A DNA stretch of 61,327 nucleotides, the filler included, from Sphacelaria rigidula (Eukaryota): NCBI GenBank assembly GCA_964200075.2. It is 10 parts of 10 records of this genome, joined end to end, with 100 filler letters (N's around TTAATTAATTAA, not from the genome) between each part and the next. Parts side by side here need not be neighbours in the genome. Positions count along the whole stretch, not along the records: positions 18,431 to 24,473 come from CAXNAA020022611.1; 9 more parts are not named here. One strand, written 5' to 3'. Made by a program: the position numbers and the translations under genes. Every line of letters starts with the position of its first letter. Position 1 is the stretch's first letter. Below the pieces are notes generated by a model. It searched no databases. It worked only from the letters and a program-made list of their open reading frames with translations, and was not told where the DNA came from. This document shows, in pieces, positions 1 through 55,371 of the stretch.

Positions 1-2046
1 AATCGAGGCATAAGTGTGCTGTCGCAAATACCTCGTGGGGGAACGAAAGGCCAGAAATCCCTCAAAATAGTTTTAGGGAGGTCGGGAGGGATGGGGTGGT
101 CCATATGAAAGTAGTTTGTCATAAATTTTGGTCAGGGAAAGCACGGCTTTTGAGTTGAACCTCACTTTTTTTTTCAATCCAATTTTCCAGAATCCACTGT
201 TGGATACTGTCACATTCCGCAGTTTTAATCGTCTCAGACCAAGAGTGGCGGGAAGAGCGGTGGACACTTCCAGCATGAAGAGCTCGCATCACGGGCGGTG
301 TGCGGAGGTGGGAAAAACACCATCACGCACGAGACCCGTCAGAGCACACATCGCAAGTGATTGCTACTGAAATAAGGTCGCGTCCCGGTAGTACACGGCG
401 AACTTGTGCAGGGTTCTCTAAATGCCGGCCCGACCCCGCGCGCACGGATTTCGAATCATACTTGTATACAGTACAGTATATACGTATGATACTGCTTGCT
501 GTCTGTGTTTACGTGGTGTACCACCCCTTGCTCTTCCACATCTAGTACAGCGGTCGGCGTTGCAGCTAAGTGTGCATTCGCCCTAGGTAGCGCACGCAAG
601 AGTAATAGGTCGCCTCTGCCGCTATAATTCCTGCCTATATCTTGAGTGAAGCTGTATGGTAGCACAGCCGCTATGGGGCGCAAGCCGGCTGTAATAATTC
701 ATACCGCGTGGAGACTTCTACACTGTCTTAAAGTCATACTGCGCGCAGTTCCCACTTTTGTACGAGTACTGTGCACGTCGCGGAAGGCAATAGCTTCCAT
801 ACTGTTCACAGTACACGCTTAAAAATTGTATACTGACTGTACAAAGCTCTTGTCTAGGGTATATTACATTTCCATACATATCAGGTGGTGAGATCGTGAA
901 ATAATCCACAGCACATGGCCGAAGTGGAAGTGAGGTAATCACCGAAATATTCGCGTGCAAAGCCGGTGCGGCCGTACTCCCGAGTTGATAACGCTAGAAG
1001 AACACCAGTGCAACGGCCATTTTGGCTGCCGGCCTGTTTGCAGGGCCGTCCCGGTAGTGGTGGGACTATCTATACCGGGATGTCGCCCCCAGTGCCAGGT
1101 AGGCCGGCAAGGGTCCGTGGCACTACCCACTGGTCGCGCGACAGGAGCTTAATCTTTGACTGTCGAGATTTTTTAAGCGGAAATGTTCAGCTCCCAACCC
1201 TCGCATATACAGCGGACCATAAACGACGCTTGTTTGCTGGGTTTCTTCGAGCGTTCGTCCATAACTGGGCGAAGATTGATGATGAGGCCGGCAGGATCCG
1301 TCGCAGCCTGCGTGGACAACTGTCACTGTACCCACTCTCTCTAGCCGTCATCAGAGAGCAAGGTGTTGAAAAAATGAAATGCCACGCACCGTGGGTATCT
1401 ACCGTATTGATGCACACCAGGCCATCAGCGACTTCCCCTGCTGCAGCTGTGATTGTGACCTCTTTCTCTACTACCAATCTGCACATCCTCAGTGTTCTTC
1501 ACCATGCTTTTGTGGATTGTTATGTTCGCATAGTTGGGGCACACATGACGCAGATGTGACCGTGTTTGAGGCTTCACGTCAAAACTAAATGATGAGGGAT
1601 CTCAGATCATTCGACTTGTGTTTGCTGCTGACTAGGTCAAGGCAATGTCCAGCTGTTTTCGACTGCTTTGCTTCCATGTTCTCATGACATTCGCTGCATA
1701 ACCGCTGTCTTCGTATTCCCAAATCATCGAGAACGCAAAGAAAATCACGGTGAAAAAATACCCCGCCATGAGCGGGCTTTTGTGATTCTTGTTTGAACTT
1801 TTTCACGATCTTGAAGGCTTTTGTGGATCGGGATCGACACCCCGCGAAATAGAGTCAGTGTGGGCGACTTTCGATGGCCAGAACACGCGCCACGCGTATC
1901 ACATGACACCTAAACCTCACAGGTAATGTACCGCTGTACCTTCTTCGTACAATGCGAAACAAAGCGCGATATAAGATGCCTTGCCGTCAGAGAAAACTCG
2001 GCAAAAGTGGTGAAAATGACGAAATGATACATGTACACACACTATT

Positions 2047-6044: not shown

Positions 6045-6144
6045 NNNNNNNNNNNNNNNNNNNNNNNNNNNNNNNNNNNNNNNNNNNNTTAATTAATTAA
6101 NNNNNNNNNNNNNNNNNNNNNNNNNNNNNNNNNNNNNNNNNNNN
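6045..6144. other. Artificial contig-joining spacer, first of nine (others: 12188-12287, 18331-18430, 24474-24573, 30617-30716, 36760-36859, 42902-43001, 49044-49143, 55186-55285)
   Basis: Each spacer is 44 N + TTAATTAATTAA (stop codons in all six frames) + 44 N. The segments between them are 6044/6043/6042 bp in descending order. Confidence 0.98.
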
Positions 6145-11560: not shown

Positions 11561-11800
11561 GAGTGATGCTACGGTAGGGGTGCAGAAATAATTTCTGAGG
11601 GGAAAATTGTTAGGAGCCCCTTCATCTCATCCAAAACACGACTTATGAAAATATGCGAGCGTACGCCAGGATCACCATTCCAATATGCTAAGGATATCCC
11701 GAATAAATCTGCNNNNNNNNNNGTGCGTGTAGAATCGTTAGGAGCCTCTGAACCAGAAAAAAAATCGCGAAAAAAGTGCACCCCTACCGTAGCATTGCTC
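11561..11800. mobile_element. MITE (GAG...CTC termini, about 25-bp TIR, 4-bp TSD CAGG) inserted in Copia RNase H
   Basis: TIRs GAGTGATGCTACGGTAGGGGTGCA / TGCACCCCTACCGTAGCATTGCTC, with CAGG on both sides. Removing it restores FEGNQG-DIQLAHN. Confidence 0.9.
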
Positions 11801-12594
11801 CAGGGAGACATCCAACTAGCACATAATGCCATCACCAACTCGAACTCCAAGCATATCGATGCTAGAGATTACTTTATCAGAGAAGTAGTGTGGAGGAAAG
11901 AGATTTCGACTATCCACGTAAGATCGGAATATCAACATGCCGATGTCTTGATAAAGGTGTTACCCACAGAGGTCTTTGGATTTCATCGTAATTATGGAAT
12001 GAGTGTTGTGCGAACTATTGGGGGTATTTGATGATATGAAAAGTTTTTGCATGGAATATGTTCCCGCGAAGGGGGGAGTGATATAGTTTTTTTTGGGGGG
12101 GGCGTACTCATTCGTTGCTTGCATTAGTCGTGTGACCATTGGCCACGCGTCCCTTTCGAGACGGAGCACCGTTCCTACTCCTAACAGNNNNNNNNNNNNN
12201 NNNNNNNNNNNNNNNNNNNNNNNNNNNNNNNTTAATTAATTAANNNNNNNNNNNNNNNNNNNNNNNNNNNNNNNNNNNNNNNNNNNNTGTGTGTTTTTGG
12301 TTGTGCTCTGATTGTGTTAGGCTGTGTGGTAAGCCTTTGCATGTGCCCCTGTCAACCGCACACATATGTTCCCCTTCGAGGTGTCCGGAAATCCCCTTTT
12401 GAAAAGGAGATTTCAGGAAGTATTTTTGCACTTCCTGAAATTTCCTCCGGAGAGGGGATTTCTGTGCACGTTGAGGGGATTTTGTGGGGGGGGCTGGTAT
12501 CGCAGTGACCAATCACCGGTCGTTTTTCAAAAGGGGGATTTTGAAAAAGGGGATTATCCCCTCCGTTAAGAAGGGCCCTTACACCCTTTACGTT

Positions 12595-17917: not shown

Positions 17918-19645
17918 ATCAGGTGTATACTAAACGTCAAGAAGAACCTGTGTATCCTCATGACCCATGCAAGATACCTCTCTCCTGATCGATGACACCC
18001 GAAACATAAGGACCGTTTCGTAACTAGATGCACTCTTTCATCCGAATCGGGTACACAGGTGTGTTCCCACTCGAGCTGTATGACCCGCGTCCTGTAAAAA
18101 AAAGTGATCCATCCGACGTGCGAAAATATGTACACAAATATTGTGATATTTTTTCTTGTCGCAAATGCTGTGTGTGGTACTTCTCATTTGTCGGACAAAA
18201 CCTCTGCATACGATTACTTTCTTCTACACACCCCTTTATCCTCCGTCTATTCCACCTACCCCCCCCCCCCCCCCCCCCACACTCACCCATTCCACACACA
18301 CTCTGTCCCTTTGGGAGGAAATGTCGGAAGNNNNNNNNNNNNNNNNNNNNNNNNNNNNNNNNNNNNNNNNNNNNTTAATTAATTAANNNNNNNNNNNNNN
18401 NNNNNNNNNNNNNNNNNNNNNNNNNNNNNNGCCGTGGCTTACCACTAGTCGTGATATTAATTACCTCTATAGTGTCCCCCGACATCTGCACTACAGACTT
18501 GACCGCACATTGTTCAATTTTTTTCCAGTACAACCGCTCTACTACGGTATGCAGTTGACACGGGACTGCCAGCCGAGGGCTATATTACAGGGGAGAATCT
18601 TGTCGCTCAAAGGGTCAAGCACGACGCCTATGGGATTCTTCACAAACATGTAGGTGGTGGCGGCGAAGGGATGCCAAGAAAAACAGCAGTAGGCCAGAAA
18701 TGTGAAGACGAAAGCCCGGTGGAAATAACCAAGGAACTACTACTCTGAGTGCATCTTGTTTGCAACCCCCTGAGTGCAGTGCATATATTATTGCTGATCC
18801 ATAAAATATTTGACCTGACAATATTTCGACCAACGCCGTGCATGGAGGGGGAGGAACTGGGTTTTTGTGTGTTTCTAACCCTGACCCTAGCCCTAACCCT
18901 AGTGTATATTTATAGCCACGACAAATCACGCGGGTACAGCATGGATCAATGATCAGCAGTGTACGTCTTTGCATATCGCTTGCGTGGTATGTGTTCGACC
19001 GAGGGTTGATCACAACCTGTCAATACTCGCGAAGGGCTATTCATAGTCACCCACCGACGACCCAACTACGCGGGAAAACGATAGCAGCAAAAAAACAGTT
19101 CAATTTGTTTTTCCACGCATAAACACGGCACGCACTCAACATTCATGACATATAACATGGACCTATATTAACACATGGACTATAACCACTACATAGTAAA
19201 ATGCCATACACGCAATTGTTACATCCTCATTCAGTTCCACCACCTCAGCACTCGAACCAAGATTGGACGCGGGTAAAAGTTCTATAGGCAAACTACACTC
19301 GAGACACCACCATCGTATATATGCATACCAGCGTAAAGTAGTGCACATCATGTGCACTCACTTACTCGTTAAACTTTTCACATAGATAAAAGCCGACAAC
19401 TTTGCTAAGGCAGACCTAACCGGAACACTGTTGAAAATATTCCTGGGCCCTGCCTTCTAAACATTCGAAGTACTCGAAAACCTCATTCATTCGGACGCAA
19501 GCGAATTTGAGCGATCATGCACAGCCGATATCTCATCTAGACTTGGCCAACCGATCACTGTTTGCCACAACCATTTTGAGCAAATGGCAATGTCAAATAA
19601 ACTGCTCCACGACAAATCAGAATCATTTCATCAATTGCATGTGCC

Positions 19646-19762
19646 CTATTGTACGCACTGCGAGTACCAATAATTCTTGTACTCGCACTCGAAATCATCT
19701 TCACAGCAGTCCGGACCGGCATATCCGACACCACCGCATTTGCCATATTTTTCCACACAGTT
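19646..19762 (-). other. CBM1 (fungal-type cellulose-binding module) in the last exon of the LPMO-like gene
   Basis: C-x3-YGKCGG-x-GY-x-GP-x2-C-x5-C-x3-N-x-WYSQC matches the CBM1 pattern (QCGGxGW/YxGxxxC..C...NxYYSQC). Confidence 0.9.
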
Positions 19763-22700
19763 GCTACCTTCGACAGCCACGACAGGGCTTGGGGTACTCT
19801 CGACAGCCGCGACAGGGCTCGGGTTGCTCTCGATGGGGCCGACGGTCACCTCAATCGTCTCTTGAAACAGTTGTCCGGAAGCGTAATCTTTGTCACCTTG
19901 AGAGTATGTTCATCAGCAGAGGAGCGAGGACGAAAGTTCTTGTTATGCGCATGCCTGACACCCAAGCACAGAAACCAAGATGAGAGATTCGACATGTTGA
20001 CTACTTCTGCTCGAGCTGCTTCTTCTAGATATGCGAAGACTTGCATCGGATTCGTCAGCATCTTTCGTCTAAATTCCAGCATACTCGGAAAATTGACTGC
20101 CGAAGGAAACGAACATTTCAAGCATTACAGTCAGCATTCATTACATAGACGGTGACCCCGTCTTCCATCATGATTCAAGACTCATAATAGTACAGGCGGA
20201 ACAGTTTCCGCAGCCCATGTTTTCCTCTTCCACATGGTTGATAGGATGTTGCATATATTAGACCATTTGCAGGGTGTACTCGTACAAGACTCGTACATCG
20301 GAACAGCAGGCTACAATAGCCCCTTCTCTATGAGGCACGGTGCAGTATCTCGCGACATGTGGTTCGGGCATTTGCTGGGTTGGAGTCAAGCTCATTCGAC
20401 AGCAGCACATGTTTTCGATTGGACAGTGAAAAACTGGTTATTCGTGTCACGTGTTGACTCCTCATCTATGTATGAGTCTGCCTCCGAGGCGCTACTTACT
20501 GGAGACGATTTCGATATCCGCGCAGTTCCAGAATTCTTCGGGGTACAGTCCATCCTCGCACAGCTCGGGGCCCAAGTCAAACCACGCCTCTTTGTTGTCA
20601 GCACAGCCGGACGGCCACGAGGGGGGATTGAACTCACGGTATCCCGGATATGTGCACACGTGCGAGGTATCTGAAATGGAAATTTGGTGCATCGTGTGGG
20701 CAGGGGGGCGGCAGACGGGGGATGTGAGATGTGCACATTTTACTTCGTGTGTTAAGGCAGGCTTAGCTCCAACTGCTGGAAATATCCTACTGCGACATAA
20801 CCTGATTGGTTTGTCGATTCTTTGTAGCTCATTGGCTGATCTGCTACAAACTCCAGCCCTGGTCGCACGATACACGTTTCCAAAACGGTTTTCACAGAGT
20901 CATCGGGTGATTGATAACTCAAGGGAGAAGATGATCGAGAAATATACAAACAAGGGTGATTCACCTGAGATTAACCTTAACCCAGTTCAACTCACAGTGC
21001 ACCATCTGCAAGATGCATCGATCGCACGTCAGGCCCTCGGGAAGCTGGTAGCGCATCGTGTTGACCTGACCCGGATCGGCGCCTGCAGGCTTCGTCTGAT
21101 CCGTTTCATCCTCCCGGCAAGGGGGGTCTACGTAGTAGCGACCCGGGTAGTCTAGATCAAGGGGACTCGCATCACCGTCATCACTGGCGCGATCAAGAGG
21201 GTACTCATGGAAGCATTCCTGATTTACGACGCCGTCGGGGCCGTTAGATTGATTCTCTGCGTCGCAGATGAAGAACTCCATGTGGCCCTGCTCAGCCATG
21301 CGTGCAGGATAAAGGTGGATCGTCGGGAACATGCATTGTCCAGTGTCTGAGTTCCGCAGTCTCCCGTTTTAACACCGATTGAGCGGGCTGTAGAGGAGAT
21401 GGGGGGAGTCTCTAATATCAGGGTGTTCGACAGAGCTGTTCGGACAGGGAGACGAGTGCAGACGCGAATGTGGGGCGACATAGTATAATACTAAGAATGA
21501 TGCATCTACAGTTACCATGTGCGCGAAGCAGGAGTAGCGGGCATTTCTGTCGTGTTGACGCTGAACCACCAAATACAGCAGATTGATGCACTAAGCACGG
21601 GCCGTCTAGGATGTGGATATCGCAAATGGGCGTTTATGTCCCCATGAACATCTATACCCCAGATGGATGCACGATAATGCAGGGTTACATGCCAACGGTG
21701 CCAAGATACTGTGAAACGGGGGATAGGACGACCAGCGTTAGTAGCTCCATGTGTAGTCCCAAGGGTTCCTTTACCGAGTGCCTCCTTTTCTTCACCTTTA
21801 GGTATACGACCCGTATACGTCGTCTACCGTGCGGCAATGGTTCGATTCGTAGCATATACGCCTATGTTCATGTGCGACAATAAAGTCAACAAAAAAAAAA
21901 CGTCTAGACGTAACCCAAGCTGTATTTCCCCTTCTCCACGGCAGGGGTCTGTCGGGAGAAGATTTTTCTTTGTTGAATATATTGTTAAGAAATTGATCAA
22001 GAACAGTGACAAAAGTCGAAACGTCTGGTGGGCTTTGCGAGGCTCGTATATTCGCTCTTCCTCCTTGCTCGCTCTGTCTCGATGACCCCCGATGCCGGCC
22101 CCGCTCACACACTTGTATGCACACGAGCGCACGGTAGCGACAGCCTACAGCCAAAGTAGCAACATTATCTCACGCCTCGCCAAACTTGCCCGGACTACTG
22201 CTTGGTAATCGAGGCACACGACACGGAACATGATCCCATAAATGTAAAATCATGGTAGCTGAGCTTGGGGAGGGCGGCGTGTCCGCCATCTCATCAGCCT
22301 CCATGTCAAGGATATCTGGACAGCGGGCTGGGTCCCCCCCTCCCACCACCACCACCACCTCAACAACTCATTTGTTCGATTTTGAAGCCCATTCTTCGAC
22401 AAGGCCCCTGTCCACGGCATCATTTCGATTTAATAGAATCCTATCCATGGCATCAATTTCCGATTTTTGCTTGCTCACCCCATGAAACGTGTCCACGGTG
22501 ACCTTTATCTCGATGATCTGGCCCTCCACGTACGAGTCGTGGACGAGGTAGTTTGCGTTCGCCTGGCTATAAAGATTGGTGTTTTCATCCTCTTCCTGCA
22601 CGAAAAAGGGAACAGCGGGTAGGAGGTTGAGATGAAGAAGATGGAATGCCGAGGATACATGCCAAGTGAACAATTAGTGAAAGGTCAAATCAGATATTGA

Positions 22701-24062
22701 AGTAGTTTTTACGTTTTTACCCACTGTGGTGTGCACACAGCGTCGATACTCCACATTTATCTCCTGCGCTGCACTGCACCAAGCAGTGTGTGTTGCTATA
22801 ATTGGGGGTAATGACAATATTTGGCGTCCGCACTGCTGCCATGGCGCTGTGTTATGGGATGTGAAATGTAGTATGTGGGCTGAAACTGTGTCATTATGTC
22901 ATGGCAGATGCTGTACTCACGTTTTCTGGTGGGAAAACGGGGAATAGCGCAGGGAACGTGTTCAGCCACCCTCACCATTTTGAACGGGCCCGAGACATCC
23001 CGGCAATGATGGTGTGTGAATCAAGCACCAGGGTTTCTCTGCAAAGGATTATAGTAATGTCATGCGATGTCTCGACAGCAATCGAAAACATTTGGTGACC
23101 GCTGCGACATGATCTTTCTCGTGGCAAGTGCCTGACCGTAGCGGAACATACTATTGATTGCACCCACTTCAACATTATCGGAGAAATATCTTGTGTGTCT
23201 ACGAGAAACGTTTTGTATATCGCGCACCTGACCGGGGTCGCCACAAACTCCGTGGCGTACAGCGATCTCATCCGGCTCGAGAAAGTTACCGTTGTCCGCT
23301 AGAAGATCACTGTGCCCCATTCACATTTGTCAAATACACGTTTGGATGCAAAGCAGATTTAGCTGGAGTCCGTACGCGCGTGACGGTGGGAATTACGGTT
23401 CAAGGCAGTCTCGCCCCTCACTCAAAGCGAAGTACATACCCCCCCCCAGCGGTCGGCGGGGTTTTTGTGCACCGTCAGGAAGAAAATCTCTGTTCGGTAC
23501 GTTCATCCGCCGTCAGGATGTCTTCCTTCAGCGTGCTTTGGCTTCCAGTGGCGCAGAGAACCCTGTTCAACGTGGTGCTTACTGGTCTCTCTTCTCAAAC
23601 TGATCATGAAAAGGTTAGGATGTAACCAGGAGAAACAGCGACCGGTAATAATCACATGAAGTGGTCCATTGCCTTACAAAGCACTGACATGGACTGCTTA
23701 TTGGAGAGGGTGGAACAGATAATGTGGGTTGTCGCCTAGGAACTTCAAGTGCTTGAGTACGCCGCTCGAAATACCCGTAAATGTAGTCAAAGTTGGAGCG
23801 CAACGATTGACACATCTCGGGTATCAAGGCACAGGCAACCCACGAGGCGCAACACACCTTATGCATGCTACACAGAATATCAGCGAAACACGTGGCATAC
23901 ACAACACCAACTCACTTGTTGTATGCGGTCATACCAGGCCACTCCCCGCCGCCCCACGCGTTGAGGACTGCAGCTTCTGTGTTCTTGATGGCCCGTTTCG
24001 GTACATCTTCATTACCCTTTGCCTGCAAACAGTGCGGGCAGTACTCGATATCTTCGAAGGTA
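19646..24062 (-). CDS. Lytic polysaccharide monooxygenase-like protein (AA15/AA10-type) with C-terminal CBM1, 5'-partial. Exons 24062-23916, 23309-23228, 22595-22479, 21287-20996, 20670-20500, 19860-19646
   Basis: Six exons splice in phase with no internal stop: EYCPHCLQAKG..RHGVCGDP..YVEGQIIEIKVTVDTFHG|GHMEFFICD..QECF..YQLPEGLTCDRCILQMVH|YTSH..PEEFWNCADIEI, then a P/S/E/V linker and CVEKYGKCGGVGYAGPDCCEDDFECEYKNYWYSQCVQ*. The signal peptide and His1 exon were not seen (the contig ends). Confidence 0.85.
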
Positions 24063-25693
24063 CTGGCGTAGTCACGAACATATCAACGGCCGAGGACAGC
24101 ACGCAGGAGAGGAGAAGGCAAGACAAGGTCAGGTTGAGCAGAGAACTGTTCGGGAAATGGTACAATTGAAAGTGCGCAGGGTAGGATAAAGTACCCCCAA
24201 ATTCCCCCCCTACCCTGGATTTTTTGGCGTACCTGGTATTTCGACTGCCGAAAATATCACAACACGAGTATCCAGGATACCCAGAGTGTCAAATGCCGAA
24301 AATACCCGGTTTGACCCTAAAGTACCTGACATTTCAGGGTACCAGGGCGGGCAAGACGTATTTATCGACGGCGGGAGGGATCGAGTAGTCTAGGACACTG
24401 CCCCCCCCATAACGCAGCCTGATCCGGCGAGAACCCGGCGTGCTCCGTCCCGGCTTTGTAGGGGCGGACCCCCNNNNNNNNNNNNNNNNNNNNNNNNNNN
24501 NNNNNNNNNNNNNNNNNTTAATTAATTAANNNNNNNNNNNNNNNNNNNNNNNNNNNNNNNNNNNNNNNNNNNNAGCGGTACACCTCATGTGCGGGTTCTT
24601 GTTCTTAACCCCAGGTCCAATTTGAGCACGTGTTCTTATGAGCAAGTTCTTAATATTTCAATTTTTTGAGGCTCAAATTCTCAAGTGCCGTATTCTTAAG
24701 TGGTGACCGCCTCTGTAGCCCAAAAGGTTTTCCCGTAGCACACAACAGTATACATCCTGTGAAAACGTCAAAGAGTATGTACCCTGGTACTCAACACCCT
24801 CGAATCCAGCCATATTACTAATATATTAGCATTGCACACTCACGACCCTGAAATCCCCTGTATACACTCAAGTCTCTGCCGTACTTGGACATTTCTGTGG
24901 GGTACAGTGTAGACGGGGAGACAGCTTTCGATAGTCTCGTTACCAGACAAAGGTGTATTCTCATTAGTACTAGAACATCGAAGTCGACCGGTTGTTCATG
25001 CATCCATGCTTGTATAAAACAATTCAAAATCCTCGGGTCTAAAAAGAACACATCATGTCCGTCATGAAGCTCAGCTGCCTAAGGGGAGATAAAAAATCAA
25101 ACATAGTTGCATATTCACTCTTTTCACAGAATCCATAAGCGCTTAAGTCGTTCGTCATCCTCCTACTTGCGTCCCAGGTTTGTCCGGGTAATCCCACTTG
25201 CTGTACATGGTTCTTCATGCTACCTCAGTGGATGGTGGTTCCAGGAATGGTCTGTCTTGTTCCTTGAGTGGCCATGCTGCCTAGGCGAGCTCTTGCGCGT
25301 GGTGTTACGCCATGATTCCTCATCGCCTACTAGCGAAAATTGCGGTCGTTTCTGGTGTTAACACCATCACGTATCGCCTGTCGGCGCGTGTTGCGGGGGG
25401 CTTTTCCACGGTTGTTGTTGAGGTGGTTGGCGTTGTTGGAGTTGTGTCCTGATCCGCTCATTGTTGGAGAAGGGGAATAGTGATGTACGGTGTTGGTAGG
25501 TGAAGATGAGGAAGGTGTTTTGAAATTTGTGATTGGGTGTGCGTCGGTCTTGAGTCTAGCTCGGTCTTGTTGAAGTATTTGACGTACGAAAGTTCGATAC
25601 GTCCCCTTTGAAAATGACGCACCGGAAATGACTCACGCCGGGTGGTACGTCACCCTTAATAATGACGCACTCCTGTTGCCTCCGTTGGTAGGT

Positions 25694-30560: not shown

Positions 30561-31189
30561 TTGGGTTCAGGCTGCATGAAGCGCCGCATATTGGCAACCT
30601 TGGCTAGAACGAACCCNNNNNNNNNNNNNNNNNNNNNNNNNNNNNNNNNNNNNNNNNNNNTTAATTAATTAANNNNNNNNNNNNNNNNNNNNNNNNNNNN
30701 NNNNNNNNNNNNNNNNGATTGATTCGTCACGAGTCGACTCATCGTACTAAAACCAAGTAATTTTCAGACGAATCATTATTCGTCCGACCCTTGAAACCCA
30801 TGATTCATATGCCGCATGAATGGAAGGTTTCGAACCGCTGTTGTCTGTTGTCCGCTGTGAAGATTGTACAGTACTGGACTGTACTGCACTGTTCTCCACT
30901 GTCCATTTGCTGCAGTGGCCGCTGCCGGGGTGTTTCCAAAATCTCACGCGAACATGCGTGGACGATTCTTGCAGCGCTGGTGCTCCCTGAAGCTGTCTCT
31001 GTACTTCTTTTTTATATTCGGGGCACTGTACTCAGTATGTCCAGGTCAATTGTACCGCAGAACACAGCATGAAAACCACAGAAGCTGTCAATACATCATA
31101 GCTCGGGGGAAAAAAAAAACTGTCTAGGAAAACCGCTCTGGGCGCGCAGACGCGTGTTTTGTACTATCGTTGATGCGTTACGCGTGAGT

Positions 31190-35700: not shown

Positions 35701-36859
35701 TGAGGCAGTGTGTGGCCCGTGGCTGTCTCTGGAAGTGGCGATACCAGAAAATGAAACTCATCGTAGGCTGTCAGCCCTGTGTAAGATAGTCAGTAGGCTT
35801 CGGGCCGAGCGATATTGGCAGAATGCAGCTCACCCTTCATGCGACTCGCCGACCGCATCACGGCGCTCCGCGCTTGGTGATTGATTGTGAGCCTGGTCCG
35901 GCGAAAACCCAGCGATCCGCCCCGGCTATGTATGGATGCGAGGTCAAGTGTCTAATGACTATGGCATGCAAGATCATGAGTACACCCCAGCCCCTCGGGG
36001 TCCAGCGCGCAAGGCACGTAGGATGAACACATTTATGTCGCTCTCTATTATTTCGTATCTACTCACCGGCGTACTCTATGGTGTTTGTCACTGTCCCGCT
36101 GACTCGTGCATAAACCCAACCAAGAACACCCGCTACACCTGTGCTGAATTACCGCCGGGTTGAAACCACACAAAAAGGTCAATTTTTTTATTTATCTCTT
36201 TTCCTTTCTTCTTCATTTGCCTCATCGCCCCGAGTTTCCTTCGGCGACTCTTCCGTGTACTTATCTTGGACACGCCTATCTCTCTCTCGTAACCGCAGCT
36301 GGACTCGTAGGGGTACAATGCATACCCGTCGATTAATCTACCAACCAGTCAATGTGCGGGGCAGATGAATGAACGGAGACCAAGCGCCGAATGCGTAGTC
36401 TTTTTTTTTTAACAGGACGTTACGGGGCTTCTTCCTGTGTAAGGTCCCACAGTTCATTTGCCCTCCGCGCTGGTGCTTGATTGTAAACATGTGTCGTATC
36501 GGAGGGGGGTGGATGATGTCACAATTCAGCTCATGCGAGAAGCGTATGATGATCGCGCATACATTTGCTTGATGTGTTTTTGAACCTTGAAAAAAACGAA
36601 GGATTTGATATTCTTGGCATGACACGGTTTTTATACACATGCAAGCAAGAGTGGCACAGCAACTCTAAAGTGTTGGAAAACAATTCCGATACGTTGCGCT
36701 CCCTCCCATTATTTAGTGTCGGCAAGCCAGCGAAAGAACCGGAAACTGCCAGACCCCCANNNNNNNNNNNNNNNNNNNNNNNNNNNNNNNNNNNNNNNNN
36801 NNNTTAATTAATTAANNNNNNNNNNNNNNNNNNNNNNNNNNNNNNNNNNNNNNNNNNNN

Positions 36860-41167: not shown

Positions 41168-42786
41168 CCACCATCATCATCATCATTACTACTATTATTA
41201 CCATTATTTTATTTCCATTTTATTGTTATTATATTATTTTCGTTACTATATTATGGTTATTACTATTAACATCACCATCATATGACCATACTTTTTAGTG
41301 TTGTTAATCCCGTCATATCAGCTTGATCTCTCGAACCCGTGGTCACGGAGGGCAAGGAGCATACCATCCATACCCATACATCGAACAGTGGAGCTCGGAA
41401 ATGGTACCAGTTATAGCTGGCCATTATCATTATAATAGTCATAATGGAAATGGTCAGATGAAAAATTTGGATAATGGTTTCAAACCATTATTTTTCGGTA
41501 CCGGCTTACCGCCTTCCTCCTGTGTGACCCCGGCCGATACGTCCGCAATACCGTAAGGTGTACACTGACGTCCAGAATAGACGGGATGAATAGACGTGAT
41601 GAAAACACACACACACACACACACACAGCAGGACTACACCCTTCTCGTCGGCGTGCCACCGGCGAGCGATGCTGTACTGCGTGCTGCAACCAGTGGTGCC
41701 CAGCGCTGCTCAATGTCAAGTTCAATCGATGCACAAATAGCGTACTCCAGAGCCAAAGCTCTCAAGAGTAGGGCAACGCGTGAACTGCGACAAGTTGATA
41801 CGGTTCCAAGAGTAGGGCGGAGCGTGCACTGTGACAAGTTGACACGGTCCTAGTGAGTTCAACGCCCACACTGCCTTGAGCAAAGCTTTCCGAACGCTCG
41901 AGGCACCTACAACACATCACTGCCGTCAGGCGGTCTAGCCGAGCCTGCGAGTAATCGGACGAACCCCGTCGCGGGGGTAGATGTTGGTGAGATTTCCTCC
42001 CTCCTTCAAGCAACCAAAAAAATAAAACATACTGCAGTAAAAAAATAGGGCGGGCCCACAGCGAGTGCGGGAACTCCCAGTACAGCTAATTAAGCCATCA
42101 GACGGCTACCTACCCTTTACAGGACCAACCCGATTGCATCATCGAAAAAGAGCGTGGCAACATCCAAACTTCAGTCGGTCGTGCTCCCACACACTTACAC
42201 ATGACTTCGAACCATGCGCACACACATATACCTTCTCTGCGTACGCACAAACCGCCGTAGCACTCTGACAACACGCAAATGCACACAACAAACATGTCAG
42301 CCATACATGAAGAAGAAAAAAAACAGTACGAGGACTAGGTCGTGTTCCATCCTTTGATACACATGAAAAACGTCATGCCACGCCACAAAATGTCGTTCCT
42401 CTCCGTTGTAAAAAATTTAGAGAAGAAAAATTGTACGAAACTAGAATGAATCGAACGCAAAGAAAAAGAGTCAGCGATAGGAACAAAAAAAAAAAAAAAC
42501 ACTCACCAAAACGACGAGGCACCTCACAAAAACCCCTCCTCCCCCCCCCCCCCCCCCCCAATCCCCCGCNNNNNNNNNNAAAATAGAATGAAGAGAACGC
42601 AAAAAAAAAGAGACACAGATAGAAACAAAAAAAAAAAACACTCACCAAAACGACGAGGCACGTCATGTTGTCGCCTCCGATCCCCGCGGTCCTCCTTGGA
42701 TCTTCCGACAAACACTTATCCATAACCGCCTCGCACACCTTTGACAAACTCATTTTTCCCACACGCTCGGCAACAAAGTCCACACA
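40832..42786 (-). CDS. Protein phosphatase 2C (PPM family), 3' end. Exon 42786-42646 and probable terminal exon 40960-40832
   Basis: The exon bounded by TTTTTGCAG and GTGAGT encodes CVDFVAERVGKMSLSKVCEAVMDKCLSEDPRRTAGIGGDNMTCLVVL (PP2C C-terminal G.DN.T metal-binding motif). The phase-0 terminal exon LDKGRV..KRQPQ* is less certain. Confidence 0.8.
41105..41187. repeat. (CAT)n microsatellite in a PP2C intron
   Basis: Seen directly in the sequence. Confidence 0.95.
41500..41628 (+). mobile_element. 5'-truncated copy of the SINE family seen at 56993-57358
   Basis: TCCTGTGTGACCCCGGCC..ATACCGTAAGGTGTACACTGACGTCCAGAATAGACGGGA followed by (CA)n matches 57260-57358. Confidence 0.7.
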
Positions 42787-43399
42787 CTGCAAAAAAAAGG
42801 GTTGGGGGGGGGGGGGGGGGGGAAAAAAAAAAGACCCTTATAGACACAGAAGGGGGGGGGGGGAGAAGAGGGATTTGGTGGAAGGGCAGCGGACCGGGGG
42901 GNNNNNNNNNNNNNNNNNNNNNNNNNNNNNNNNNNNNNNNNNNNNTTAATTAATTAANNNNNNNNNNNNNNNNNNNNNNNNNNNNNNNNNNNNNNNNNNN
43001 NCGTACTCATTTGTTGCTTGCCTTAGTCATTTGACCATTGACCACGCATCCCTTTCGAGACGGAGCACCGGGGCGCGTATTCATTTGTTGCTTGCCTTAC
43101 TCGTTTGACCATTGACCATGCATCCCTTTCGAGATGGAGCACCGAGAGGGGGGTATATGATTGCACGAAAAGAAGAGGCCCATAGATGTGTCCGACGACC
43201 TGCCACACTCGCGGTGCGCCTTTATTTGGCTGAAAACGGTGCCAAGCAGCACGAATGAGCGTAATTTATCTATAACAAGCTCGTTCAAACAACCGTTGCT
43301 GCTTTCAAATCCGATTTGACATGAAATTTCGTGCAAGAAGTGGCCCAAAATATCCCCCCCCCCCCCTATCGAAGGATGACCTCTGAGGTGCACCAGCAT

Positions 43400-47680: not shown

Positions 47681-49143
47681 CCATCTCGAAGGAGAACCCG
47701 GTGATGGAGATGGGGAGATTGGCGACCGTTCGGTACCGCGTGGCCGAAATGATCCCGAGGGAGAGGCGAAAGGCGTCGTTCATATGCTCCGACGAAGGTG
47801 AGCATCTTGTGAGACCTCGGAGAAGAGATCCCACCCCTGTTTTTCACCCTCAATCAGGTTATTTTCAGCACCCGAGGATGGGCAAAAGGGCCAAGATTTA
47901 CGACCGCGGCGAACACAACATCATCGTTAGACCTTTCCATGTAACTGCCGTGATTTGGATTCAAGTTGGCTTCATGTGAGCGTTATCCACGATGTTCAAA
48001 TACTTGTGAGGCGGAGAGGACGGAGGGAGGTGGATCCTGTGGTTGTCCTCGGGTTCTTCTCACCGCGAGGAGATCTCGAACATGCATGTGTATCGAAAAT
48101 CTAGAATATGGAATTCCGTCCGATTGTCAGAACACCACTATTTTCCCCTCGTTCCTTTCATGCTGGCGTTTTGCAGCGGATAATCAATGGACGGGCAGAG
48201 AGGCACGTCCGACGGTGTCAATTTTGACCCGGAAGAGCGAGCGCGCAATGGTCGTTCTTTGTTGTGTCGGTGCATGTTTTGTTTGAAATGATGTAAAAAC
48301 TAGGACCAAGGGGTGCAGCGCGCCATTGCCAGATTGGAAGCTTTGCAGGTATCCCTGAAGGTGGTGAAACAGCATGCGTATAGCCTCATACGGACTACAA
48401 CTTGATATGATTCTGGCGAAAGGAAAATACATGCGGGATTTGTGATGACATCGTACAAAGTAGGGTAATCCAAACGTTGCATTTTCCTCCATATGTTCTC
48501 ATTTTGCAGATTTTCCACTCGCTTTTTCAACCTTTACTTCGTTTCGTAAAAGCCATTTTTCCCTATGACGTTTTTCGCCGCACGTGTTCAAGTTTCCGTT
48601 GATGGACGGGATGAAGGCCACCCACCAGCCGATTCCCGTGTTCGCAAGCCGTGTTCGCAAGATCAACATTTTGATCGGTGGAAAATATGGATCCCCGAAA
48701 GTAAGTAAGTGCCCGGGCTTGTCACAGGTGCTGTCAGCCTCAATATTACGTTATACTTGTAGCACATCGCGGAGGCGAAATGTTCTCAAGGTGTTGATGA
48801 GGATGTTGAGCGCTTTGGGTGCTGTTTTGGTGCGTTGAGTTGGGGCATGGAACGTAACAAATGGCCCGAAAACCGCGCATCATAGAGATGCCCCCCTCTC
48901 GGCGAAACCCCGTTGGGGTTGGCATCGGTTGGCGATGACGCTGTAAAACACGCCACTTACTGCGGAAGCTGTGCAACCAAGTTACCGACTGTTTTTGCGC
49001 GCTTGCGTTTTTTTGCGGTAACCATGATGGTAGTCGAGCTAGANNNNNNNNNNNNNNNNNNNNNNNNNNNNNNNNNNNNNNNNNNNNTTAATTAATTAAN
49101 NNNNNNNNNNNNNNNNNNNNNNNNNNNNNNNNNNNNNNNNNNN

Positions 49144-54372: not shown

Positions 54373-55371
54373 CCGACATGTATGTGACCATCTAGGCGCC
54401 CGACCACAACAGCATGCCACAGGCCAGTTGGTGTGTGTGTGAGAGAGAGATCAAACAGTTGTGGAAACTTTCTTGATATGCGGAGTGATAACAGATACCT
54501 ATGTGACCTAACGTTTTGAGCGTGGTGCAAAGGGGTGTGTCAATGCTTCAATCTGGAGCTTTCGTCGCTCTACTTTGCTGACTGCCGTCTGCACAGAAGT
54601 CGCCCACCGTAACAACATGTAAGTACCGAATTTCGGAACAGCTATGGAAACAAAACAGTTCGATTTGATACACGACGTCCACATGATTCAAATCACTCTT
54701 GTGACCTGAGGGAAAGTGGTCTCTTTTGGTCCGGCCAAACCTGCGAAGACACTGTCTAACAGCATTACCAAGCTTTGCTGGCATTGACATGTGCCAATCA
54801 GTACAGAACCGAACAGAAATCGACAGTTTAACGTTCTTATTAGAAAGCAACGAGCATAAAATGGTTTGCACGTGGGAAAAGTGGGATTTTCACACAGGAG
54901 AAACTCTCTATTCTCCACGAGTGTTACATGCACTCGCAAAAACTCTGTCGGCGTTCTTTAATATCTGCTCGGGAATTGTGCTACAGCTTGTGCGGCACCA
55001 CGCGGTACAAAACTCACTGTAACTGAAAATCCAGTCTTAGCCGTTTTCTTTTGGCTAATTTCGCCGCACATAGTACCCTCAGCTCTTTACACTTTCGCAC
55101 TTGACTACGGAGTCATCCTACGATAGGGGGGGGGGGGGTATTTGGTTGCACGAAAAAAGAGGCTCATAAGTGTGTCAGCCCTCCTNNNNNNNNNNNNNNN
55201 NNNNNNNNNNNNNNNNNNNNNNNNNNNNNTTAATTAATTAANNNNNNNNNNNNNNNNNNNNNNNNNNNNNNNNNNNNNNNNNNNNGGGGGGGGGGGGGGG
55301 GGGGTGGGGGGGGGGGGGTGTTGTGTGGTGGGTTTGCTTCATGATTTTGCTTTTTTGTATTTTTTTCACAG

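What the first reader, a model, noticed from the sequence alone, without database searches (positions are those of the whole stretch)
19646..24062. Intact, intron-containing LPMO-like gene fused to a cellulose-binding CBM1 in a probable brown alga
Seen: six exons, scattered over separate ORF calls (the first visible exon has no ORF call in its frame), splice in phase into a stop-free protein. It has CPHC..GVCGDP, TxxxHxGxxEFxxC, LPxGLTCxxCILQ and EEFWNCADI, then a Pro/Ser/Glu linker and a CBM1. Established: these motifs characterise copper-dependent AA15/AA10-type LPMOs, where H of HxG is the second histidine-brace ligand and F of EEF is the axial aromatic. CBM1 binds crystalline cellulose or chitin. 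Inference: an endogenous oxidative enzyme for remodelling the organism's own cellulosic wall or attacking oomycete/fungal walls. It carries extra acidic, Cys-containing inserts (DRASDDGDASPLDLDYPGRYYVDPPC; PSWPSGCADNKEAW) that may define a lineage-specific subgroup. AA15-like sequences are known to occur in algae, so the novelty lies in the function and architecture, not the fold.
Basis: partly seen in the sequence, partly recalled or inferred. Interest (0 to 1): 0.8.

Follow-up and report, generated by a model that had tools for sequence, protein, structure and literature searches.

The report
Brown-algal AA15 LPMO gene with CBM1
This is an expressed, intron-containing brown-alga gene for a copper-dependent polysaccharide-cleaving enzyme (AA15 LPMO) tethered to a cellulose-binding module; the gene family and this domain pairing are already known, so it is a real but fairly ordinary find.

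Summary
Six minus-strand exons (24062-23916, 23309-23228, 22595-22479, 21287-20996, 20670-20500, 19896-19646) join through GT-AG introns into a 352-residue open frame. Contigs of one public run skip exactly introns 2, 3 and 5; a DNA run does not.

It is an AA15-type LPMO with a C-terminal CBM1. The nearest relative is a 414-aa Sphacelaria rigidula protein, 76% identical over the catalytic domain and its sister in the tree. A model of that relative superposes on Thermobia AA15 (5msz) at Z 19.7, starting at His1. In the window, the second brace histidine and the axial Phe align with His91 and Tyr184 of 5msz. The CBM1 passes Pfam's threshold.

The exon(s) for the signal peptide and His1 are missing because the window piece ends at 24473, so "intact" is unproven. 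26 of 27 aligned relatives have His1.

AA15 in brown algae, AA15-CBM1 fusions and AA15 amplification in brown algae are already published. This is a new member of a known kind. Action on cellulose is inferred, not tested.

The parts
23916..24062 (-). Exon A, the first exon visible (starts with 1 base of a split codon). It encodes the ..FEDIEYCPHC.. start of the long L2-like region. The acceptor AG is at 24064-24063, behind a pyrimidine-rich tract.
   Evidence: tblastn to P0001 residues 48-96, E 5e-15. In one search the X1 contig ends at 23916, and the X2 contig covers 23934-24064 and then runs on for 20 unlike letters.
23228..23309 (-). Exon B, encoding ..NGNFLEPDEIAVRHGVCGDPGQ.
   Evidence: One search shows the joint 22594/23227 (skips 632, CT..AC) in an X2 contig.
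22479..22595 (-). Exon C. It ends with ..TFHG. The His codon at 22484-22482 is the predicted second histidine-brace ligand.
   Evidence: One search aligns it with His91 of 5msz. In one search this column is His in 27 of 27 relatives. One search shows the joints 21286/22478 and 22594/23227.
20996..21287 (-). Exon D, the core of the catalytic domain (GHMEFFIC ... LPEGLTCDRCILQMVH). It includes the acidic loop DRASDDGDASPLDLDYPGRYYVDPPC.
   Evidence: LPMO_10 E 0.0018, 19.4 bits, below the 23-bit cut-off on its own. (5msz E 0.0097). (77% identical to P0001). In one search an X3 contig ends at 20996.
20500..20670 (-). Exon E, encoding ..TSHVCTYPGYREFNPPSWPSGCADNKEAW..YPEEFWNCADIEIVS. The Phe codon at 20533-20531 is the predicted axial aromatic.
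   Evidence: (94.5% identical to P0001 residues 263-317). One search aligns Phe with Tyr184 of 5msz. In one search this column is Phe in 24 of 27 relatives.
19646..19896 (-). Exon F, holding the linker, the CBM1 and the stop codon (19648-19646).
   Evidence: One search shows the joint 19894/20498 (skips 603, CT..AC) in an X2 contig.
19751..19896 (-). Pro/Ser/Glu/Val-rich linker containing a 30-nt tandem repeat (19770-19833, 2.1 copies).
19664..19750 (-). CBM1 module. The aromatic residues (Tyr, Trp, Tyr) and the four Cys that align with those of Cel7A's module are present, plus one extra Cys pair.
   Evidence: CBM_1 E 2.4e-7, 31 bits against a cut-off of 20.6, profile positions 1-29 of 29. One search gives an end-to-end alignment to the Cel7A CBM1 5x39/1cbh, E 6e-8.
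19548..19645 (-). 3' untranslated region, minimum extent.
   Evidence: In one search, contigs of X1 (19548-19849) and X2 (19550-19740) run through the stop codon.
24063..24473 (-). 3' part of the intron upstream of exon A. The piece ends at 24473, so the exon(s) for about 50 residues (signal peptide + His1 + about 20 residues) are not in the window.
   Evidence: Searches found no match to residues 1-47 of P0001 anywhere in the window. The linker starts at 24474.

Best explanation
This is a nuclear gene of a brown alga for a secreted copper-dependent lytic polysaccharide monooxygenase of CAZy family AA15 (Pfam LPMO_10). A Pro/Ser-rich linker joins the catalytic domain to a C-terminal family-1 carbohydrate-binding module.

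Shown here:
- the exon structure;
- spliced contigs in a public run;
- family membership by sequence profile, and by fold for the 76%-identical orthologue;
- conservation of the second brace histidine (FHGGH) and the axial Phe (EEFWNC);
- a complete CBM1.

Inferred:
- The missing 5' exon(s) supply a signal peptide followed directly by His1, as in 26 of 27 aligned relatives.
- His1 (amino group and imidazole) and the second His hold one Cu in a histidine brace.
- After reduction, the Cu uses O2 or H2O2 to oxidise C1 or C4 of a glycosidic bond in a crystalline polysaccharide.
- The CBM1 docks the enzyme on the flat face of crystalline cellulose through its Tyr/Trp/Tyr face.

The most likely substrate is therefore cellulose. 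That could be the alga's own wall, with a role in loosening or remodelling, or the cellulosic walls of oomycete pathogens. Confidence is about 0.9 for the family assignment and about 0.55 for cellulose as the native substrate.
For: Gene model and splicing:
- Six GT-AG exons give an open 352-aa frame.
- X2 contigs skip exactly introns 2, 3 and 5.
- DNA-run X5 contigs run across the same borders unspliced (records 24, 27 and 29).

Family by sequence:
- 13 of 18 hits carry PF03067, and 5 of 18 carry PF03067 + PF00734.
- Orthologue P0001 scores 52.9 bits for LPMO_10 (cut-off 23), with profile position 1 on His29.
- The family profile, which includes the window's exons, hits TdAA15A (5msz) at E 9e-19. 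It pairs the brace His with His91 and the Phe with Tyr184.

Family by fold:
- The AF2 model of P0001 (pLDDT above 90 over most of residues 31-320) matches 5msz at Z 19.7, rmsd 2.7 A, 185 of 195 residues, model 29..319 = chain 1..195.
- That is ahead of AA13 (Z 16.1) and AA10 (Z 14.6 or less). Foldseek also ranks 5msz first.

Conservation across 27 relatives:
- His1 in 26 of 27, each behind a hydrophobic leader.
- Second His in 27 of 27.
- Axial Phe in 24 of 27.

CBM1: 31 bits against a cut-off of 20.6, with an end-to-end alignment to the Cel7A CBM1.

Cellulose leaning: relatives in this clade are fused to GH9 (P0129), GH5 (P0115, P0156), CBM2 (4) and CBM1 (20 of 81 scanned).

Literature (passages read): TdAA15A cleaves cellulose and chitin, and CBM1 fusions are taken to point to cellulose (PMC5823890).
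Against: - His1 and the signal peptide of this particular gene are not in the window.
- The window's own exon D scores below Pfam's threshold when scanned alone (19.4 against 23 bits). The spliced protein could not be given to the profile or fold tools.
- The fold evidence comes from the orthologue, not from this protein.
- The runs with spliced contigs are only guessed to be RNA. They belong to one study, each joint rests on one low-depth contig, and the same runs also hold intronic contigs.
- Introns 1 and 4 have no listed joint.
- Some relatives are fused to chitinases (GH18 P0104; GH19 P0099), and characterised AA15s include chitin-only enzymes. Substrate cannot be read from sequence.
- No brown-algal AA15 has been assayed in any paper that searches found.
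Confidence: 0.75

Rival explanations
1. It is the same enzyme family, but the native substrate is chitin or another non-cellulose glycan. On this reading it is a defence enzyme against chitin-walled fungi or epibionts, with the CBM1 serving as a general anchor to crystalline polysaccharide.
For: Characterised AA15s act on chitin; the oomycete A. astaci enzymes are chitin-specific (PMC8393829, passages read), and AA15 as a family is active on chitin as well as cellulose (PMC5823890, passages read). Relatives are fused to GH18 (P0104; P0157 weakly) and GH19 (P0099, together with three CBM1s). Brown-algal paralogues carry WSC (6 of 81) or F5/8-C (P0007) modules instead of CBM1, which shows that targeting diversifies.
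Against: CBM1 is classed as cellulose-specific in both papers read. Other relatives are fused to the cellulase families GH9 and GH5 and to CBM2. Brown-algal walls contain cellulose and are not known to contain chitin (established knowledge, not tested here).
Confidence: 0.15
2. It is a non-catalytic LPMO-like protein, for example a copper-binding or wall-structural protein, or a 5'-decayed gene copy that has lost His1 or its secretion signal.
For: The exon(s) for His1 are not in the window. LPMO-like proteins without oxidative activity exist in other families (recalled, not checked here). DNA run X5 carries a second sequence variant over exons A and D, which could be an allele or a paralogue.
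Against: All visible catalytic-site residues are conserved. The frame is open for 352 codons and the splice sites are canonical. Spliced contigs exist. 26 of 27 relatives keep His1 behind a leader peptide. An X2 contig runs 20 letters beyond the exon A acceptor into unlike sequence, as expected if an upstream exon is spliced on.
Confidence: 0.07
3. The piece is not algal. On this reading it comes from an oomycete, fungus or other eukaryote living on or in the alga and was co-assembled.
For: AA15-CBM1 is common in Saprolegniales oomycetes (PMC8393829), and CBM1 is typical of fungi.
Against: All 15 named hits of 18 are brown algae. The gene is sister to a Sphacelaria protein (SH-aLRT 100) inside a clade whose named members are all brown algal (SH-aLRT 99), with Chromera and Platyproteum outside it. 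Depth in DNA run X5 is an even 65-86 over the unique parts of the piece.
Confidence: 0.03

Closest known systems
TdAA15A, Thermobia domestica AA15 LPMO (PDB 5msz; PMC5823890)
   Same: The fold matches: the orthologue model scores Z 19.7, rmsd 2.7 A, with 185 of 195 residues aligned from His1 onwards. The profile E-value is 9e-19. Shared motifs are CGD, HxGxxEFxxC, LPxGxTCxxCxLQ and EE(Y/F)xNCADI.
   Different: The axial residue is Phe here and Tyr184 in TdAA15A. The catalytic domain is about 290 residues against about 195, with a much longer helical L2-like region (CPHC ... WP ... NGNFLE) and two longer Cys-containing loops. TdAA15A has no CBM. Sequence identity is only about 22%.
Sphacelaria rigidula unnamed protein (P0001, 414 aa, NCBI)
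   Same: Probable orthologue. It is 62.5% identical over 363 aligned positions and 76% over the catalytic domain, and it is the window gene's sister with SH-aLRT 100. The architecture is the same: LPMO_10, linker, single CBM_1.
   Different: It comes from a different species. Its linker has a different length and sequence. Its brace motif is YHWGH, against FHGGH here. It is full-length, with a leader peptide and His29.
Oomycete AA15-CBM1 proteins (Saprolegnia, Achlya; PMC8393829)
   Same: These are also stramenopiles, with the same AA15 + C-terminal CBM1 architecture (passages read).
   Different: I did not compare sequences, and no oomycete sequence was identified among my hits. Those of A. 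astaci are chitin-specific virulence factors and mostly carry X473/X474 modules rather than CBM1.
Bacterial AA10 LPMOs (CBP21 2bem; ScLPMO10C 4oy7)
   Same: They share the Pfam family (LPMO_10), the beta-sandwich fold and an axial Phe. Z is 13-14.6.
   Different: The structural match is weaker than to AA15. AA10 is a bacterial or viral family, its CBMs are usually CBM2, CBM5 or CBM73, and there are no introns.
Fungal CBM1 of Cel7A (1cbh, 5x39)
   Same: There is an end-to-end alignment. The four Cys, the Tyr/Trp/Tyr positions and the Asn/Gln that align with those of Cel7A's module are conserved.
   Different: The window's module has an extra Cys pair (SNC.. and ..DCC..). From recall, this resembles the three-disulfide CBM1 of Cel6A. 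It sits on an LPMO in an alga rather than on a fungal hydrolase.

Membership tests
AA15 LPMO (Pfam LPMO_10, PF03067) | Significant match to the family profile | tested here: inconclusive
   The window's exon D alone scores 19.4 bits, E 0.0018, below the 23-bit cut-off. The spliced protein could not be submitted. Orthologue P0001 scores 52.9 bits over profile positions 1-183. 55 of 81 relatives scanned carry LPMO_10.
AA15 LPMO (Pfam LPMO_10, PF03067) | Closer to AA15 than to the other LPMO families | tested here: met
   The profile containing the window's exons hits 5msz (AA15) at E 9e-19. The next LPMO-type hits, 7okr (an AA10) and 7ze9 (AA16-like), score only E 0.004 and 0.017. For the orthologue model, Z is 19.7 for AA15, 16.1 for AA13, 14.6 or less for AA10 and 9.3 or less for AA16, AA11 and AA9.
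AA15 LPMO (Pfam LPMO_10, PF03067) | Signal peptide followed directly by His1 (the N-terminal brace ligand) | tested here: inconclusive
   The exon(s) are outside the window piece. 26 of 27 aligned relatives have His at this column behind a hydrophobic leader of typically about 17-39 residues; the remaining one lacks the N-terminus.
AA15 LPMO (Pfam LPMO_10, PF03067) | Second brace histidine | tested here: met
   The His of FHGG (codon 22484-22482) aligns with His91 of 5msz. The column is His in 27 of 27 relatives.
AA15 LPMO (Pfam LPMO_10, PF03067) | Axial aromatic residue (Tyr or Phe) in the EE(Y/F)xNCADI motif | tested here: met
   The Phe at 20533-20531 aligns with Tyr184 of 5msz. The column is Phe in 24 of 27 relatives.
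AA15 LPMO (Pfam LPMO_10, PF03067) | Copper binding and oxidative cleavage of a polysaccharide | not testable with these tools
   This needs recombinant protein, EPR and product analysis.
CBM1 (Pfam CBM_1, PF00734) | Profile match above the curated threshold over the whole module | tested here: met
   31 bits against a cut-off of 20.6, E 2.4e-7, profile positions 1-29 of 29.
CBM1 (Pfam CBM_1, PF00734) | Four conserved Cys and three aromatic residues of the flat binding face | tested here: met
   The alignment to the Cel7A CBM1 (5x39) conserves Tyr, Cys x4, Asn, Trp-Tyr and Gln. Which residues form the binding face is recalled knowledge.
CBM1 (Pfam CBM_1, PF00734) | Binding to crystalline cellulose | not testable with these tools
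   This needs pull-down or isotherm assays on Avicel, bacterial cellulose or algal cellulose, and on chitin.

The most novel reading that the evidence does not exclude
The amplified brown-algal AA15 family, with this CBM1-bearing orthogroup as its cellulose-directed arm, would be the alga's main endogenous cellulose-cutting activity. On this reading oxidative cleavage, possibly fuelled by the H2O2 and phenolic reductants that brown algae make in abundance, does the wall-loosening job that endoglucanases and expansins do in land plants. The WSC- and discoidin-tagged paralogues would carry the same chemistry to other wall polymers. Nothing here excludes this reading and nothing here tests it. 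The premise that brown algae lack canonical cellulases is recalled, and I could not verify it.
Probability: 0.2. Interest if true: 0.6.

Novelty: new member of a known kind. Interest (0 to 1): 0.3.

Why it matters
No brown-algal LPMO has been assayed in any paper my searches found. The Phaeoexplorer preprint nevertheless reports AA15 as one of the few carbohydrate-enzyme families markedly amplified in brown algae (10.1101/2024.02.19.579948, one passage read). A clean, expressed AA15-CBM1 gene is a reasonable candidate for a first biochemical test of what these enzymes do in a cellulose/alginate/fucan wall.

[quoted passage not shown] Pfam CBM_1 passes its threshold here and in Ectocarpus, Sphacelaria, Choristocarpus, Nemacystus and Hapterophycus proteins.

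Beyond that, the finding is an annotation-level confirmation and not a surprise.

Tried and rejected
- **Whole genome:** none is held for this window, so the missing 5' exon could not be fetched.
- **Exon 1 within the window:** tblastn with seven full-length relatives found nothing for their first 47 or so residues. The apparent extension to 24127 for P0004 runs through a stop codon and is spurious. The pyrimidine-rich stretch at 24090-24170, which translates like a hydrophobic leader in another frame, has no ATG. I read it as the polypyrimidine tract of the intron.
- **RNA runs:** no RNA holder is listed. Runs X1-X4 are only guessed to be RNA. Introns 1 and 4 have no listed joint. Contigs merely stop at 23916, 20996 and 24064, with short unlaid tails.
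- **Rfam:** no family reaches threshold on the piece 18431-24473.
- **Earlier findings of this scan:** none, by place or by words.
- **Literature on cellulases in brown algae:** Michel et al. 2010 is not held. Two searches and the review PMC8307928 (one passage) gave no statement either way.
- **Search:** too loose (2,595 papers). It only re-found the Phaeoexplorer preprint.
- **Single-sequence PDB searches:** weak for the catalytic domain (E 0.006-0.01). Only the profile search was convincing.
Full report
**1. What is in the sequence**

The window is not one contiguous stretch. It is ten pieces of 6043 nt joined by N44-TTAATTAATTAA-N44 linkers. The finding lies in the piece 18431-24473.

On the minus strand, six blocks of open frame join through canonical GT..AG introns into one reading frame of 352 codons ending in TAG:

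| Exon | Coordinates |
|---|---|
| A | 24062-23916 |
| B | 23309-23228 |
| C | 22595-22479 |
| D | 21287-20996 |
| E | 20670-20500 |
| F | 19896-19646 |

- The introns are 606, 632, 1191, 325 and 603 nt long.
- The donors read GTGAGT, GTGCGC, GTGAGC, GTGAGT and GTAAGT.
The HxGxxEFxxC motif (FHGGHMEFFIC) is created by the exon C/D joint.
- The six exons match a single Sphacelaria rigidula protein colinearly, at tblastn E-values from 7e-7 to 4e-47. The arrangement is therefore not chance.

**2. Is it transcribed and spliced as modelled?**

One look-up found eight public runs of one coded organism.
- Three hold 83-89% of the sampled words. I take these to be genomic.
- Four runs of another study hold 12-21%, about the exon share of the stretch (1060 of 4417 nt). 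They are only guessed to be RNA.

I laid three of the low-share runs and one genomic run.
- Contigs of X2 skip 603 nt (19894/20498), 1191 nt (21286/22478) and 632 nt (22594/23227), each with CT..AC ends on the + strand. These are exactly introns 5, 3 and 2. One 421-nt contig spans exons D, C and B.
- Other contigs stop at 23916 (end of exon A), 20996 (end of exon D) and 19896 (start of exon F), with a few unlaid letters.
- One X2 contig covers 23934-24064 and then continues for 20 letters unlike the window, as expected if an upstream exon is spliced on.
- The genomic run X5 shows none of these joints. Its contigs run straight across the exon/intron borders.

Caveats:
- Each joint rests on one contig of depth about 4.
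- All the spliced contigs come from one study.
- The same runs also hold a few purely intronic contigs, which could be unspliced RNA or DNA carry-over.
- Introns 1 and 4 have no listed joint.

**3. What it is**

*Single-exon scans.* Exon F gives CBM_1 above Pfam's threshold (31 against 20.6 bits). Exon D gives LPMO_10 just below it (19.4 against 23 bits).

*Homologues.* A word-seeded search with exon D returned 18 proteins.
- All 15 that carry an organism name are brown algae: Sphacelaria, Ectocarpus, Scytosiphon, Choristocarpus, Laminaria, Discosporangium, Pylaiella and Hapterophycus.
- 13 of 18 are pre-annotated with PF03067, 6 of 18 with PF00734, and 5 of 18 with both.
- An exhaustive HMMER search found 193 cluster representatives at E <= 1e-3.

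*Orthologue.* The full-length Sphacelaria protein P0001 matches LPMO_10 from profile position 1 (its His29, right behind a 28-residue leader) to position 183, at 52.9 bits, and carries one CBM_1.

*Profile against solved structures.* A profile of 27 relatives plus the six window exons hits the founding AA15 structure, Thermobia TdAA15A (5msz), at E 9e-19.
- The His of the window's FHGG pairs with His91.
- The Phe of EEFWNC pairs with Tyr184. These are the two residues that PMC5823890 (passages read) names as brace ligand and axial residue.

*Conservation.* Across the 27 relatives:
- the His1 column is His in 26; the other lacks its N-terminus;
- the second His is present in 27;
- the axial Phe is present in 24.

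*Fold.* An AlphaFold model of P0001 (mean pLDDT 81.5, above 90 over most of residues 31-320) is ranked nearest to 5msz by Foldseek. By VIA-align it scores Z 19.7, rmsd 2.7 A, 185 of 195 residues, with model 29..319 on chain 1..195. That is ahead of AA13 (Z 16.1), AA10 (14.6 or less), and AA16, AA11 and AA9 (9.3 or less). This evidence is for the orthologue, which is 76% identical over the catalytic domain, not for the window's protein itself.

*CBM1.* The window's module aligns end to end with the Cel7A module. The four Cys, the Tyr/Trp/Tyr positions and the Asn/Gln are conserved.

*Linker.* It contains a 30-nt tandem repeat.

**4. Where it sits in the family**

I built a quick maximum-likelihood tree of the spliced window protein with 43 of the 169 proteins held. 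I picked those 43 for length or a known name and left the rest out.
- The window gene is sister to the Sphacelaria AA15-CBM1 protein (SH-aLRT 100).
- Both lie inside a clade of 25 rows (SH-aLRT 99) whose named members are all brown algae.
- That clade contains several paralogue lines with CBM1, two CBM1s, WSC, WSC + CBM1 or an F5/8-C domain.
- Chromera and Platyproteum sit just outside. A second large clade holds choanoflagellate and ichthyosporean sequences (names).

Among 81 relatives scanned with Pfam:

| Pfam domain | Relatives |
|---|---|
| LPMO_10 | 55 |
| CBM_1 | 20 |
| WSC | 6 |
| CBM_2 | 4 |
| GH5 cellulase | 2 (P0115, P0156) |
| GH9, full domain | 1 (P0129) |
| GH18 | 1 (P0104) |
| GH19 | 1 (P0099) |

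The catalytic domain is about 290 residues against about 195. But their conserved cores also occur in the non-algal relatives. They therefore mark a broad protist AA15 subgroup and not brown algae alone.

**5. What is missing**

The first 50 or so residues of the orthologue have no counterpart in the 411 nt upstream of exon A or anywhere else in the window. These residues are the leader, His1 and the HAYLMSPVSRNF.. strand. The piece simply ends. No whole genome is held. "Intact" is therefore unproven for this copy, although everything visible is intact.

**6. How it most likely works**

By homology, this is a secreted enzyme in which His1 and the FHGG histidine hold Cu in a histidine brace, with Phe in the axial position. 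After reduction, O2 or H2O2 is activated to oxidise C1 or C4 at a glycosidic bond of a crystalline polysaccharide. The CBM1 keeps the enzyme on the crystal face.

Cellulose is the favoured substrate for three reasons:
- the CBM1 itself;
- the GH9, GH5 and CBM2 fusions among relatives;
- the cellulose content of brown-algal and oomycete walls (established knowledge).

Chitin is the main alternative, because of the GH18 and GH19 fusions and the chitin-active AA15s in the literature. All of this step is inference.

**7. Comparison with what is known, and novelty**

- PMC5823890 (passages read) already lists Phaeophyceae among the taxa with AA15 and reports CBM1 fusions in the family.
- PMC8393829 (passages read) reports that over half of the AA15s of several Saprolegniales carry CBM1.
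- The Phaeoexplorer preprint (one passage read) names AA15 among the families markedly amplified in brown algae.

The gene is thus a new member of a known kind. Two modest points of interest remain:
- No paper found by searches assays a brown-algal AA15.
- PMC3532174 (2012, passages read) states that brown algae lack CBM1 genes, which current data contradict.

**8. Verdict**

Interest is 0.3.

Noticed in passing
window 6045-6144, 12188-12287, 18331-18430, 24474-24573, 30617-30716, 36760-36859, 42902-43001, 49044-49143, 55186-55285: The window is ten 6043-nt pieces joined by N44-TTAATTAATTAA-N44 linkers, so neighbouring pieces need not be adjacent in the genome. Two further short N runs lie at 11713-11722 and 42570-42579.
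   Followed up: partly
window 22120-22289 (intron 3) and 24330-24473 (end of the piece): Summed contig depth in DNA run X5 is about 1e5 and 3e6 here, against about 70 over the rest of the piece. It is also very high in runs X1-X3. These look like dispersed high-copy repeats. 24416-24464 has a 92% copy at 5431-5383 in another piece. There is no Rfam match.
   Followed up: partly
window 20999-21195 and 23933-23936: DNA run X5 holds a second contig variant over exons D and A, with nine single-base differences such as 21131 C>A and 21154 A>G. It could be a second allele or a very recent paralogue of the gene.
   Followed up: no
proteins P0129, P0156, P0115, P0130, P0151, P0163, P0104, P0099: Unnamed relatives of this AA15 clade are fused to GH9, GH5 (+CBM1 or CBM2), CBM2, GH18, or GH19 with three CBM1s. 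These are single polypeptides that combine oxidative and hydrolytic cellulose or chitin attack.
   Followed up: partly
proteins P0015, P0016, P0054, P0068, P0079, P0102, P0007: Brown-algal paralogues swap or add WSC or F5/8-type-C (discoidin) modules in place of CBM1. The WSC line has also lost the CPHC motif and changed EEF to GN(I/V/L)F.
   Followed up: no
literature: PMC3532174: This 2012 survey states that brown algae (Ectocarpus) and diatoms are devoid of CBM1 genes. Pfam CBM_1 above threshold in several brown-algal AA15 proteins, including Ectocarpus ones, contradicts it.
   Followed up: partly
window 20323-20527, 20732-20909, 21288-21515: The runs with spliced contigs also hold low-depth contigs lying wholly or partly in introns 5, 4 and 3. 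These could be unspliced precursor RNA or genomic DNA in those libraries.
   Followed up: no
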